From Octopus vulgaris (lineage: Eukaryota), in the NCBI GenBank assembly GCA_951406725.2, contig OX597815.1, forward strand, positions 80,848,001 through 80,912,000: 64,000 bases of DNA, in the 5' to 3' direction. The position numbers were made by a program, and so were the translations under genes. This document shows positions 14,983-48,371 of the stretch, in pieces. Every line of letters starts with the position of its first letter. Within the stretch, counting starts at the first letter, position 1. The notes beneath the pieces are model-generated. The model was given only the letters and a program-made list of their open reading frames with translations, was not told the DNA's origin and searched no databases.

Positions 14983-16012
14983 CATACATACATACATACA
15001 TATACACACAGGTGAGCATATAAGTGCAAAACAAGGTGGAAAAAATAGTACTCGAATGTTAAAAGTAGGGTAATATGCTTTAGTTAGAGCTGAAAAATTA
15101 TCGCAAAACTGTTACTCAGAGTGTCACGTTCTCATTCGTCGGACAGTTGGGATGAAAACTGAATCGAAATTTTAATTCAGTTTTCATTATAACTGTTCGA
15201 CGAACGGGAAAGTGAAACTCTGAATAACAGATAAATGATAATTTTGTAGATTTAATAAATCCATACACACATGCACACATACACACACATTCACAGATAT
15301 ATATATATACTGAATGGATAATTGAATAAGTTGGAGCCAACAAGAAGGAGTACAGAGCAACATTTATTTGTAATCACTACAATTGTTTCAACGAGATGTA
15401 GCTCCCTAGGTTCACGGGTATTTGGTTATGTAACCGTTTCCTTGCATTGTGAGATCGTGTTGTTTCATCAGGTGATATATAAATATTGTTTCTGCGTTCC
15501 GTAAACTCAAATTTGATACTCTGTGTAGATACTACTACCTCGCATAATCAAGTCAGACAGAGAGGATGTGGTCGAATCCGAAAATTTGAGTTTATGGACC
15601 ACAGAATGAATATTTATATATAGTTAATCCAAACAAGAAAGCACAAAATAACACAACAACGCGAGGACGTGGAACAAATATAGTATTATTGGACGCTCAG
15701 GAAAGAAGGAAAGAAGGAGGGTTTAACGTTTCGAGTGGAGCTCTTCGTTTCGAGTGGAGAAGGAAAGATCCAGAGAAGGGAAGACAGAGGAAAAAAAATC
15801 GCCAACGGTGCACACGCGGTCACATTTTGAAATAAATAAATAAATATATATATATATATATATATATATGAAATTGCAAGCAATAAGAATGCAATGCACA
15901 AGTCTTTTTAATGCCTAAATTTACAATTGTTTCATCTTAATTTATTCTCATCAATCTTACTATATTATGTGATAATGGTGCTAATCCCGGCTTAATACCC
16001 AAATTACGTATA

Positions 16013-16235
16013 CGAGGGGATCGAGAGCTGAAAAGTTCCTGGCTTTGGCTAAAAGAAAATACAGGAGGATTAATTAATTATGATTATATTGAACATACTC
16101 TACTCTCAAATTCACACAGTTATTGCAGTGATCCTTCAGTTTTTCTAAGCCTTGTAAAATAACCCAGAAGTTTGAACCTCTAACCAGGTCTTTCGTGATA
16201 TCCTTAAAGCCAAGAATTTTTCAGCACACCCGTCG
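16013..16235. mobile_element. Mariner-type MITE
   Basis: TA-CGAGGGG..GCTGAAAAGTTCCTGGCTTT ... AAAGCCAAGAATTTTTCAGC..CGTCG-TA. Confidence 0.75.
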
Positions 16236-16294
16236 TATATGTGTGTAAGTGTGTAAGTTTATACATACATACATACACATAATAACTGCAATAA

Positions 16295-17197
16295 TCTTTC
16301 TACTATAGGCCTGAAATTTTGGGTGAGGGAGAAGTCGATTACATTGATCCCGGTTCACAACTGGTACCTATTTTATAGACACCTCGGAAGCGTCTGAACT
16401 CATAACGTAGAGATGGTTTAAATGGCGCTAAGCATTAATTCCGGCATGCTCACAATTCTACCGCACAGACATAGTTGATACAAAAGACTAAAAGTGTTAC
16501 GAAGCTGATGTTTTAAAGCATCACTACTAATAGTTTCCCCTTCTTTGCATTCTTTCTTTCAATATTCATCATTTCCTGAAATATTCTATTCTAGGCACAA
16601 GGCCCGAAATTGGTACTTAATTTATTGACCCCGAAAGGATGAAAGGCAAAGTCGGCCTCGACGGAAATTGAACTCAGAACGTAAAGACAGACGAAACACC
16701 GCCAAGCATTTCACTCGGTGTGCTATCGTTTCTTATTTCTTTACTGCCCAGAAGGGGCTACACATAAAGGGGACAAACAAGGATAGACAAATGGATTATG
16801 TCGATTATATCGACCCCAGTGCGTAACTGGTATTTATTTAATCGACCCCGAAACGATGAAAGGCAAAGTCGACCTCGGATAAATTTGATCTCAGAACGTA
16901 GCAGCAGACGAAATACCGCTAAGCATTTCGCCCTGCGTGCTAACGTTTCTGCCGACTCGCAGCATTCTTTTCCTGAAATAATCTTTTCTACTCTAGGCAC
17001 AAAGCCCGAAATTTTTGGGGAGGGAGCCAGTCAATTAGATCAACCCCAGTACGCAACTGGTACATAATTTATAGACCCCGAAAGGATGAAAGGCAAAGTC
17101 GACCTCGGCGGAATTTGAACCCAGAACGTAATGAGAGACGAAATACCGCTTAGTATTTCGTCCTGCATGCTCACGTTTCTACCAGATCACCGCCTTC
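16295..17197 (-). mobile_element. Nested/tandem cluster of SINE family B
   Basis: The core occurs 3 times in 16585-17197, plus a decayed copy at 16295-16460. Confidence 0.85.
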
Positions 17198-18073
17198 GTT
17201 TCCTGAAAAAATGCACAAGCAAAGATGAATAACATCTGATGATATCGCCGCTTTCATATATGATATTGGACTTACATACTTCTTTCTATGCACTTATAGA
17301 TATGCACTCACAAACGCAGACAAACGCACCTATACGTATGTATACCGGTGCATATATAATATATGTATATAAAGGTATGCATATGCGCGTGTGTGTGCAT
17401 TTATGTGCTTGTTCTAAATGACTATATTTCTCTAAAGTTGTGTACGGTTACACACGTACACAAAAAAATTCTGACATCTAGTACGAGTGGTCTTGATTGT
17501 TATATGCCACTTAACTGTCACTATACAGCATCGTCACTTGTTCAACTTGCAAATAAATAAATATAATAATAATAACAATAATAATAAAAGTCGGCGACTG
17601 GTTTTATTTTTTTCTCTAGTTCTTTGTTGTGATTACTGTTCTTCGTTTTCGTCCTCGTCATTGCAGACGTTGTTGTTGATGTCGACGTCCTTGGTGATAG
17701 AGGGAGTAGGGAGTTGTTGTTTTACTGTTACCTGTAAAATATTGTTGCTAAGTTTCATGGTTTTAGACTGGGTCCCGGGAATATGTTAAGTAGAGCCCTC
17801 AAATTTCCCCACCCATATCAAATATTTATCTACGCTGTCAGTTGGATGTTTGCACAGATATATATGTATATATGTGTGAATGTGTGTGTATGTATTTGTG
17901 TATATATATATATATATATATATATATATATATATATATATATATATATATGTATGTATTTGTATGTGTGTGTGTGTGTGTGTGTGTGTGTGTGTGTGTA
18001 TGTACATAAATGTATGTATATACATACATGTTTGTCTGTGTATGTGTCTGTCTCTAGCTGTATGGTTTAAACA

Positions 18074-46789: not shown

Positions 46790-47168
46790 AACTTATAAAT
46801 AAGGGCAAACGAAAAAATTTCTAATGCCAAATATGCCGAAATAAGACACATTGTCCATAACCATATATTTCTTTTTCCGCATTTATCACTGACGAAGGGA
46901 GGGTTCTTATGAACTAACACTGAAATCGGTCCGATATGGTAATAACGGAATTTTTTAGAAATTTCTGTCGACCTTTTTCGAGTAGCGTGCTTATTGTGTT
47001 AAATTATATGGTTATGGACAATGTGTCTTATTTCGACATATTTGGCATTAGAAATTTTTTCGTTTGCCCTTATTTATAAGTTGTTTATGAATTTAACCTT
47101 TAGGGGTATTTTTTAATATGCTGGCCATTGATAAAATTTTTTTTCGAAAAAATTCTATCCTACATTAG
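46790..47168 (+). mobile_element. Hammerhead-bearing non-autonomous element with an inverted partial tail at its 5' side; minus-strand sibling at about 43908-44300
   Basis: 46790-46866 is the reverse complement of about 47005-47081. The body is homologous to 43908-44215. Confidence 0.7.
46883..46942 (+). ncRNA. Type-I hammerhead ribozyme (same family as 44160-44215)
   Basis: TTATCA-CTGACGA-AGGG[...]CACT-GAAA-TCG[GTC]CGA-TA-TGGTAA, with one mismatch in stem II. Confidence 0.7.
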
Positions 47169-47322
47169 ATGTAAATTTTAATATATATAAGTTCGGCAAA
47201 ATTTAGATTCAGATGAATATGGTACTTAAGTTAAAGGCACCAGAATCTTGTATGGTATTATCCATATAAATCAAATGGGGTGATTATAATCAAAATAAGC
47301 AACAAGTATATCCAATGTAGAG

Positions 47323-47406
47323 TAGTACAATTGTTTCATGCTACTTCATTTTATTAAACACTGTAAGTATTACATCAGTTTTAAAATGTCGAGCATTCTT
47401 CGGCCA
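47323..47406 (-). ncRNA. Hammerhead-like motif with extended stem II and CCGAAGA core variant
   Basis: The minus strand reads TGG-CCGAAGA-ATGCT...AGCAT-GAAA-CAATTG-TA-CTA. It is homologous to 31168-31251 with pairing-preserving changes. Confidence 0.6.
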
Positions 47407-48371
47407 CTTATAGAATTTTCCAATTAAACGGACAATGCACATTCTTATCCTTATTTCATTTGCCAACATTATAAAGAGGGGAGATATATAGACAGAGAGG
47501 TTAGTTTTATTCTTAAGACCATGATAGTAGTATGTTCACTCTCCGTCTGTAGATTTTATCATTGAGTTCACTTTGTTATTTAGATCTATCAGTGGGAGGG
47601 GGTTTTATTCAACCACTGGATATGCAGAACCTACAGATGAGTACGTATATATATATATATATATATATATATATATATATATATATGAGGTGTGTGTGTG
47701 TGTGTGTGTGTGTGTGTGTGTGTGTGTGTGTGTGTGTGTGTGTATGCATAGACACAAATATATATGTATGCATGTATGTATGTTAGTATGCAGGCCTGTT
47801 CAGACTCACTGATACACAAATGGTTTATTTGTCGAATGGATAAACATTGTCTGAGTAATTACAGACATTCTAGGTGTTAATATAATACATGTTAGATAAC
47901 GTAGTCCTCATATTTACAAAATAGGAAGAAGCTATGATTTTACGCTGCTTAACTGTATATGGTTTCAGCTTTTTCCTCGAAGCACTCGACAGCATTCACG
48001 CACACACAAACATACACGTATGTGTATATATGTGTATATATGTATATGTGTGCGTGTAGATGTGTCTGTTAATATGTGTGTAGCTGAGTGTATACGTGTG
48101 TAATACATTTTTTTTTCCCTTTAATAGAAATAGAGCGTAAACCGAGCATTTACTAGAGAGCCCAACCAGCACAAAACACAGCTTCTAGAAATAAATAAAT
48201 AAATAAATAAATAAATAAATAAATAAATAAATAAATAAATGGATAAATAGATAACATAAAATAAATAAAATACTAAGGGAAAGAAAAATGTATCCCATGT
48301 CGCATATTATGAAAATTCCTTACGAGTCAAAAAGTACTTTAACATGGTGCCCATGACTTGCTTGTAACAAC

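What the first reader, a model, noticed from the sequence alone, without database searches (positions are those of the whole stretch)
15020..47430. Multiple families of small non-coding fold-back elements, most carrying a hammerhead-like motif
Seen: unrelated 300-450 bp elements with a main copy plus an inverted partial copy, usually next to (TA)n. They lie at about 15020-15240, 19095-19485 (sibling 27265-27455), 31035-31418 (sibling 47188-47430), 46790-47168 (sibling 43908-44300) and 43600-43895 (no clear hammerhead). Their arms lack DNA-transposon-type termini and TSDs. Inference: these are non-autonomous PLE derivatives (retrozyme-like) rather than MITEs, at a very high density for 64 kb, and they would form long dsRNA hairpins if transcribed.
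Basis: partly seen in the sequence, partly recalled or inferred. Interest (0 to 1): 0.75.

Follow-up and report, generated by a model that had tools for sequence, protein, structure and literature searches.

The report
Fold-back tail ends of Penelope retroelements
These small mirror-image repeats are real and carry hammerhead-type RNA motifs, but they are likely just the short tail ends of Penelope-like jumping genes, whose inverted half is likely built anew at each landing in a TA repeat, a layout already described for this class.

Summary
The fold-backs are real: arms of 67/86 (A), 95/95 (B), 136/142 (C), 80 bp at 97.5% (D) and 28/28 (E). Siblings 43908 and 47188 have no inverted copy. Type I hammerhead motifs number 10 in the window against 1.1 in shuffles. 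Each fold-back unit is a 3' end with a one-sided tail plus a tail-less inverted copy; 9 of 12 ends abut (TA)n. Inner breakpoints differ between copies in the window and in public contigs, which rules out MITEs. No unit is tandem, so they fail the retrozyme definition. A and C match ORF-bearing Hydra-clade Penelope-like elements in hammerhead type and in the position of the tail-less end, and a Hydra-type endonuclease fragment with its own hammerhead lies at 22247-22990. This layout is published, and the scan noted it before on other DNA. Non-autonomy is not shown; only family C hints at a preferred 5' end. The small new point is a 55-75 nt stem II in four hammerhead-bearing copies, against 10-25 nt in 39 relatives.

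The parts
15020..15265 (.). Unit A: main 3' end on the minus strand (15020-15164, with tail) plus inverted copy (15175-15259); decayed Hydra-type hammerhead at 15107-15148 (-)
   Evidence: 67/86 arms; PSSM 27.4, CM E 0.21; ends about 93 and 39 nt after the cleavage site (and the sequence)
15310..15477 (-). A2: hammerhead-bearing 3' end with exact core and a 75-nt stem II region, ending at (TA)n; no inverted copy
   Evidence: (E 0.0009); the long stem II folds poorly
18533..18630 (+). F: short truncated sibling of the ORF-bearing element's 3' end
   Evidence: 83/106 identity to 22896-22998
19093..19486 (.). Unit B: main copy on minus (19093-19391), hammerhead 19234-19273 (-, one core change), inverted copy 19392-19486; left end cut at a SINE-like repeat
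22247..22990 (+). 3' fragment of a Hydra-type Penelope-like element: GIY-YIG endonuclease (22247-22680, frameshifted near its end), 3' UTR, hammerhead 22868-22947 with a 55-nt stem II, end at (TA)n
   Evidence: Pfam GIY-YIG E 4e-4, below the curated cut-off; 37% to P0001, E 9e-24; profile E 1e-41
27266..27456 (.). Bsib: tail 27266-27318, main copy only to 27372, inverted copy about 27369-27456 joined at a 4-nt microhomology; the inverted arm reaches further 5' than the main copy
31035..31418 (.). Unit C: tail 31035-31129, near-perfect palindrome 31130-31418, Hydra-type hammerhead with 59-nt stem II in both arms (31165-31248 -, exact core; 31300-31383 +, one change)
37342..38336 (.).
   Evidence: 119/134
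43601..43894 (.). Unit E: tail 43601-43654, main copy on minus, 28-bp inverted copy; possible decayed hammerhead near 43810-43853 (-), read by eye only
   Evidence: 3' end related to family D (43/55)
43908..44312 (-). Dsib: family D copy without inverted arm; hammerhead 44158-44211 with exact core; extends about 75 nt further 5' than D
   Evidence: extension matched by loose ends
44361..44690 (+). Decayed Hydra-type linker-region coding fragment
   Evidence: 18/62 identity to P0001, E 6e-7 pairwise
46791..47180 (.). Unit D: inverted copy 46791-46870, main copy on plus 46862-47168 with hammerhead about 46884-46940 and tail 47082-47168
   Evidence: stem I has a mismatch, so the descriptor missed it
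47188..47600 (-). Csib: family C copy without inverted arm; hammerhead 47320-47403 (one core change that the family majority letter does not share)

Best explanation
The units are likely short 3'-terminal copies of several hammerhead-bearing Penelope-like retroelements (A and C of Hydra type), each likely written into a (TA)n target by two priming events that join head to head. Shown: each fold-back is a main 3' end with a tail plus an inverted copy that stops at an internal site and lacks the tail; outer ends are fixed within a family where two copies can be compared, inner junctions vary; the two arms of one copy are closer to each other than to siblings. Inferred: the element's GIY-YIG nicks both strands of the palindromic (TA)n; one nick primes reverse transcription at the RNA's tailed end, the other at an internal AT-rich site; both cDNAs stop early and anneal at a few shared bases; each insertion leaves new (TA)n flanks, so copies pile up (43600-47600). 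The templates were likely ordinary element transcripts that were 5'-truncated during copying (about 55%; see rivals). The hammerhead is inherited from the parent's 3' end and likely plays no part in a single inserted copy.
For: Published layout: 5'-truncated copy, adjacent inverted 5'-truncated copy, optional 30-40 bp tail (PMC8557442; PMC3846280); Hydra clade targets (TA)n, carries hammerheads and occurs in Octopus; a Penelope protein cuts and extends both strands and starts at two sites that bracket the tail (PMC11167929). Window. B and Bsib share both outer arm ends but differ inside, and each copy has its own letter at one site in both arms. Contigs: 7 of the 15 joints shown (45 in all) change strand, at 7 different position pairs, each in one contig per run at depth 7-87 against family depths of 1e5-1e6 in X1 and X5. 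25 of 37 Hydra-type loci with 250 nt or more after the stop carry a hammerhead. In 33 of the 39 hammerhead loci the first (TA)3 lies 31-55 nt after the cleavage site in 10, 92-110 nt in 4, 167-245 nt in 3, none in 16; inverted arms of C and A end at 37 and 39 nt, main copies at 135 and about 93 nt. A model trained only on those 33 ranks Csib, C, A, A2 and C-inverted as its top five.
Against: No fold-back unit was linked to an ORF: a frameshift-aware search found no coding remnant 5' of B, Csib, Dsib or E (weak test, the positive control scored 15.1 against a shuffle maximum of 14.5). B, D and G have hammerheads that are not of Hydra type, and their parents are unidentified. Tails of C and D (about 90-100 nt) are longer than the published 30-40 bp, and C's tailed end (135 nt) lies outside the 92-110 nt class. 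Family C depth falls more than tenfold near 47520 in all three larger runs, and 3 of its 5 inversion joints have one side at 47537-47556. The inverted arms of B and Bsib start within about 10 nt of each other, which a later deletion from a B-like unit would also give. C scores poorly with the covariance model (E 4.8), and single hammerhead folds are not more stable than shuffles in most cases (z from -2.25 to +0.94).
Confidence: 0.8

Rival explanations
1. At least one family (most likely C) is a dedicated non-autonomous element of about 330-370 bp with its own 5' end, transcribed from a promoter in the terminal repeat and copied in trans by a Hydra-type protein. This changes only the template, not the insertion mechanism.
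For: Depth of family C drops from 2.6e5 to 3.5e3 across 47493-47546 in X1, similarly in X3 and X5; three inversion joints have one side at 47537-47556. No coding remnant found upstream. Non-autonomous PLE families are known in Chlamydomonas.
Against: Depth rises again to 1.6e4 at 47574-47600; this copy has several private letters at 47503-47519 and one contig spans the place with 21 gap letters, so the drop may be a mapping effect. Stop-to-hammerhead distances run up to 416 nt in relatives, so 200 non-coding nt prove nothing. Family D continues 5' of its breakpoint. F is a truncation of an ORF-bearing end.
Confidence: 0.3
2. The inverted arm arises by snap-back: one cDNA folds on itself and copies itself, instead of two priming events on RNA.
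For: A and C are near-perfect palindromes centred on the 5' break; self-priming was proposed for such palindromes (PMC3846280); arms within a copy are near-identical.
Against: In Bsib the inverted arm holds about 35-40 nt that the main copy lacks, and lacks the tail that the main copy has, so neither arm can template the other unless a later deletion occurred. Tail-less ends also occur without any inverted partner.
Confidence: 0.25
3. They are MITEs with long terminal inverted repeats and a TA target duplication hidden in (TA)n.
For: Outer arm ends are fixed in family B and flanked by TA; a Tc1/mariner-like element lies next to Bsib.
Against: The tail lies outside the inverted repeat on one side only; inner breakpoints vary; two siblings have no inverted arm; arms match nothing else in the window, including the Tc1-like termini; hammerheads match retroelement 3' ends.
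Confidence: 0.03
4. The palindromes are assembly artefacts.
For: Inverted repeats beside microsatellites are hard to assemble. B, Bsib and E arms are identical.
Against: Arms of A, C, D and G differ by 2.5-22%; the D junction stands in a contig of run X1, though that run may not be independent of the window.
Confidence: 0.02

Closest known systems
Hydra clade of Penelope-like elements (Craig et al. 2021, PMC8557442; includes Hydra-1_Obim and Penelope-13_HM)
   Same: (TA)n targeting, type I hammerhead near the 3' end with a longer palindromic stem III, inverted 5'-truncated copy (noted for Penelope-13_HM), endonuclease without CCHH and with CxxC and CxH motifs in the window's fragment.
   Different: The window's units are only 190-410 bp; the hammerheads of C, A2 and the 22868 element have a 55-75 nt stem II region, against 10-25 nt in 39 relatives and short stems in the paper's Hydra table; the window's endonuclease fragment lacks the CxCX5C linker. 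By eye none matches the 3' end of Hydra-1_Obim.
Insertion structure of endonuclease-bearing Penelope elements: pLTR, inverted pLTR, optional tail (Arkhipova et al. 2013, PMC3846280; Frangieh et al. 2024, PMC11167929)
   Same: Head-to-head arrangement, tail on one arm only, microhomology at a junction, palindromes at the centre.
   Different: Tails here are 24-100 nt rather than 30-40; no TSD can be read because of (TA)n flanks.
Minimal hammerheads of PLEs (Cervera and de la Pena 2014, PMC4209133)
   Same: Mostly single motifs from truncated elements, pairs on opposite strands 100-700 bp apart, palindromic stem III, extra base after position 9; G and B fit this type.
   Different: That paper's 'larger than usual' helix II is 6-8 bp; family C's is predicted at about 25 bp.
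Animal non-LTR retrozymes (PMC7229834; bioRxiv 10.64898/2026.07.22.740005)
   Same: Non-coding, 150-450 bp, type I hammerhead, PLE terminal origin.
   Different: Defined as tandem repeats with at least two hammerhead units that give circular RNA; the window's units are single or inverted, never tandem.

Membership tests
PLE insertion (EN+) | Main 3' copy with adjacent inverted 5'-truncated copy, head to head | tested here: met
   7 units: A, B, Bsib, C, D, E, G
PLE insertion (EN+) | Tail on one arm only | tested here: met
   All 7 fold-backs; lengths 24-100 nt, longer than published in C and D
PLE insertion (EN+) | Variable 5' truncation and inversion points | tested here: met
   B vs Bsib, D vs Dsib, C vs Csib; 7 distinct strand-change joints among 15 shown
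PLE insertion (EN+) | Type I hammerhead in sense orientation near the 3' end | tested here: met
   B, C, D, G and siblings Csib, Dsib; decayed in A; at most a remnant in E; absent from Bsib, which is cut before it
PLE insertion (EN+) | Same 3' end found on an RT-EN coding element | tested here: inconclusive
   Met only for F with the 22247-22990 fragment; not found for A-E
Hydra clade | Insertion into (TA)n | tested here: met
   9 of 12 ends within 2 nt
Hydra clade | Hydra-type hammerhead and end positions | tested here: met
   Met for A, C, Csib, A2; not met for B, D, G, whose stem III differs
Hydra clade | Endonuclease without CCHH, with CxxC and CxH; CxCX5C linker | tested here: inconclusive
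   Fragment at 22247 has the first three features but not the linker; it is not part of a fold-back unit; no RT is present for a tree
Non-LTR retrozyme | Tandem repeat of at least two hammerhead units | tested here: not met
   Self-comparison shows no tandem copy of any unit
Non-LTR retrozyme | Circular RNA and self-cleavage | not testable with these tools
   Only contigs were available
Non-autonomous PLE family | Defined 5' end and no ORF in full-length copies | tested here: inconclusive
   Hint for C, none for D; no genome held
MITE | Symmetric fixed TIRs bounding the whole element | tested here: not met
   One-sided tails, variable inner ends, arm-less siblings
MITE | Constant TSD | tested here: inconclusive
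   (TA)n flanks hide any TA duplication
MITE | Termini shared with a DDE transposon | tested here: not met
   No match to the Tc1-like element in the window; genome-wide partners not searchable

The most novel reading that the evidence does not exclude
Family C is a very high-copy, non-coding element of about 350 bp that parasitises Hydra-type Penelope elements and carries a working hammerhead with a stem II of about 25 bp, a variant that standard descriptors miss. Such long-stem hammerheads would be a lineage-wide feature of this genome's Hydra-type elements, and thousands of ready-made 50-140 bp hairpins would feed RNA editing or small-RNA pathways.
Probability: 0.2. Interest if true: 0.6.

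Novelty: new member of a known kind. Interest (0 to 1): 0.3.

Why it matters
Mostly for annotation: these repeats look like TA-flanked MITEs but are retroelement ends. They give a compact test bed for an open question named in PMC8557442, how PLEs form inverted structures and target microsatellites: the tail-less arm ends at a short AT-rich internal site, and Bsib favours two priming events. The long stem II suggests that hammerhead counts in such genomes may be too low when the stem II spacer is capped (17 nt in the core search of PMC8557442).

Tried and rejected
No whole genome is held, so no family consensus or density could be computed. The repeat finder was swamped by microsatellites. Rfam showed only simple-repeat matches below gathering scores in the rows shown. 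Exact-pattern scans for family C in metagenome, viral and prokaryote contigs and for family D in viral contigs found nothing. No fold-back unit matched any of the 77 metagenome loci at DNA level; only microsatellites did. By-eye coding remnants 5' of Csib and Dsib were rejected after the shuffle test (45/200 and 66/200 shuffles as good). No RNA holder listed; run X14 is only guessed to be RNA, and its contigs say nothing on expression or editing. Contig depth was not turned into a copy number. The tail hairpin motif of relatives (16 of 33) matched A and C only after I loosened the pattern (2 of 10 regions, no shuffle control), so it is a weak point. Naiad origin was considered for the (TA)n bias and rejected for A and C, since Naiads lack canonical hammerheads. 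Searches for a long stem II in retroelement hammerheads and for octopus Penelope hammerheads found no paper on it; subscription journals are not covered.
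Full report
Setting. The window is animal DNA rich in (TA)n and SINE-like repeats. It looks like octopus DNA; that label is recalled, not tested. No whole genome is held. I worked from the window, contigs of four public runs, 77 metagenome loci and eight papers.

Observation. Self-comparison finds inverted repeats at all five main sites. Arm identities are A 67/86, B 95/95, C 136/142, E 28/28 and D 97.5% over 80 bp. The sibling at 27266-27456 folds back too (54/54). 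The siblings at 43908 and 47188 do not. One more unit, G, has arms at 37342-37470 and 38180-38312 (119/134). A relaxed type I hammerhead descriptor finds 10 motifs against a mean of 1.12 in 60 shuffles, and 4 exact cores against 0.02. Six of the 10 lie in B, C (two), Csib, Dsib and G. D's motif has a stem I mismatch and was read from its alignment to Dsib. A's is decayed. E has at most a remnant, seen by eye. 9 of 12 fold-back ends lie within 2 nt of (TA)4+ (background 3.7% within 10 nt). D and E share a 3' end (43/55), so the families are not all unrelated.

Anatomy. Read in the hammerhead's sense, every fold-back is: (TA)n, inverted partial copy, junction, main copy, tail, (TA)n. The inverted copy stops at an internal AT-rich site and lacks the tail. 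B and Bsib share both outer arm ends, but the main copy is 299 bp in B and is cut about 245 bp earlier in Bsib. At one site both arms of B carry one letter and both arms of Bsib another, so the two arms of a copy came from one source at insertion. The Bsib junction has a 4-nt microhomology. In Bsib the inverted arm reaches further 5' than the main copy, which simple snap-back cannot give without a later deletion.

Other copies. I laid contigs of runs X1, X3, X5 and X14 on 46845-47640: 10505, 3584, 9351 and 498 records were laid. Of 45 joints 15 are shown; 7 change strand, at 7 different position pairs, each in one contig per run at depth 7-87, while family depth is 1e5-1e6 in X1 and X5. The D junction stands in one X1 contig only. 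Loose ends before 46862 (8 contigs in X5, 2 in X14) resemble the sequence that Dsib has there, so family D runs on past D's breakpoint. Loose ends at the 3' ends of C and D show (TA)n. Csib extends to about 47600. The family majority letter at 47402 gives the intact core, and the paired stem I sites 47408 and 47321 both vary in a way that would keep the pair (phase not shown). Against my reading: family C depth falls more than tenfold near 47520 in the three larger runs and 3 of its 5 inversion joints touch 47537-47556. This may mark a preferred 5' end, or a mapping effect of private changes in this copy.

Link to Penelope-like elements. A GIY-YIG fragment at 22247-22680 is 37% identical to P0001, has 1753 relatives at E 0.001 or better and shows the CxxC and CxH motifs without CCHH that define the Hydra clade. 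It lacks the CxCX5C linker. About 190 nt behind it lies a hammerhead, then (TA)n 51 nt after the cleavage site. F (18533) is a short sibling of this end (83/106). An alignment of three relatives fetched 77 loci. The ORF end was located in 71; 25 of the 37 with 250 nt or more downstream carry a hammerhead, 39 in all. I dropped 6 near-duplicates and aligned 33; stems I and II covary (93 double changes against 27 in shuffles). In these 33 the first (TA)3 lies 31-55 nt after the cleavage site in 10, 92-110 nt in 4, 167-245 nt in 3 and is absent in 16. The inverted arms of C and A end at 37 and 39 nt; their main copies at 135 and about 93 nt. A profile from the 33 ranks Csib (41.8), C (30.4), A (27.4), A2 (26.9) and C-inverted (23.7) on top; 1 of 40 shuffles exceeded 27.4. 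The covariance model ranks A2, Csib, 22862, G and A first, and C only at E 4.8. B, D and G have other stem III types; their parents are unknown. No coding remnant was found 5' of B, Csib, Dsib or E, a weak test, and these copies end within the 3' UTR lengths seen in relatives (-4 to 416 nt).

Mechanism. Shown: layout, fixed outer and variable inner ends, same-source arms, (TA)n flanks. From the literature: a Penelope protein cuts and extends both strands and starts reverse transcription at two sites that bracket the tail. Inferred: both strands of the palindromic (TA)n prime, one at the tailed end and one at the internal site; the two short cDNAs join at microhomology; new (TA)n flanks attract further insertions. 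Confidence 0.8 for this class of origin. Whether the template was a full transcript (about 55%) or a dedicated short RNA in at least one family (about 30%) is open.

Comparison. The layout is that of Fig. 2 of PMC8557442 as described in its legend and of PMC3846280. Hydra elements insert in (TA)n, one has an attached inverted copy, and one is from Octopus. PMC4209133 already notes single and opposite-strand hammerheads from truncated PLEs. Retrozymes are tandem by definition; these are not. MITE features fail. The scan noted the same kind of structure in other genomes; those notes are unchecked and I did not use them as support.

What is new. Family sequences found in none of my scans, and a long stem II: 59 nt in C and Csib, 55 nt at 22868, 75 nt in A2, against 10-25 nt in 39 relatives. 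It folds as one long helix in C, Csib and 22868, poorly in A2. Searches found no paper on it. Cleavage is untested.

Papers seen. PMC8557442: abstract, passages, sections 11 and 15, supplement parts 1, 2, 52, 53 and one search; figures not seen. PMC11167929 and PMC4209133: parts 1-2 of 4. bioRxiv 10.64898/2026.07.22.740005: parts 1-3 of 5; its supplements were not seen and could list related families. PMC3846280, PMC7229834, PMC6962438: passages. PMC10085705: abstract, passages, sections 13 and 15.

Verdict. Real, well explained, a new member of a known kind. Interest 0.3.

Noticed in passing
window 27500-27830, 45030-45220, 45720-46000 (+): A three-copy repeat family (65-76% alike) holds hammerhead boxes in the order cleavage site, GAAA, CUGAnGA, like non-circularly permuted type-SGC hammerheads (PMC10085705). 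Stem I (5 bp) is complementary in all three, stem III shows one compensatory change, stem II has no clear partner. The published octopus Naiad 3' ends printed show the same order by eye. One search found no paper on it. Possibly more novel than the finding itself.
   Followed up: partly
window 50696-55593 (-): Long Rep/helicase ORFs of a Helitron-like element (1351 aa plus two further pieces); label by recall.
   Followed up: no
window 25953-27203: Tc1/mariner-like element with inverted termini and TA flanks, directly left of Bsib.
   Followed up: partly
window 15470-15625: Separate 150-bp imperfect palindrome with TA at both ends, no hammerhead found.
   Followed up: no
window 15625-15835 (-) and 29085-29118 (+): Further short minimal-hammerhead-like remnants; the first has a small internal duplication and lacks the first core box.
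   Followed up: partly
window 60240-61500 (-) and 37740-38150 (+): Non-LTR retroelement pieces with a restriction-like endonuclease motif next to (TAA)n runs; the second lies between the two arms of unit G. Label by recall.
   Followed up: no
window 49280-49340 (+): ETS-like motifs and an ATG followed by a splice-donor-like site; possibly a gene start, seen by eye only.
   Followed up: no
L001-L077: Metagenome Hydra-type elements have two 3'-end classes and a conserved hairpin motif in the tail (16 of 33); I did not see this motif described in the text read.
   Followed up: partly
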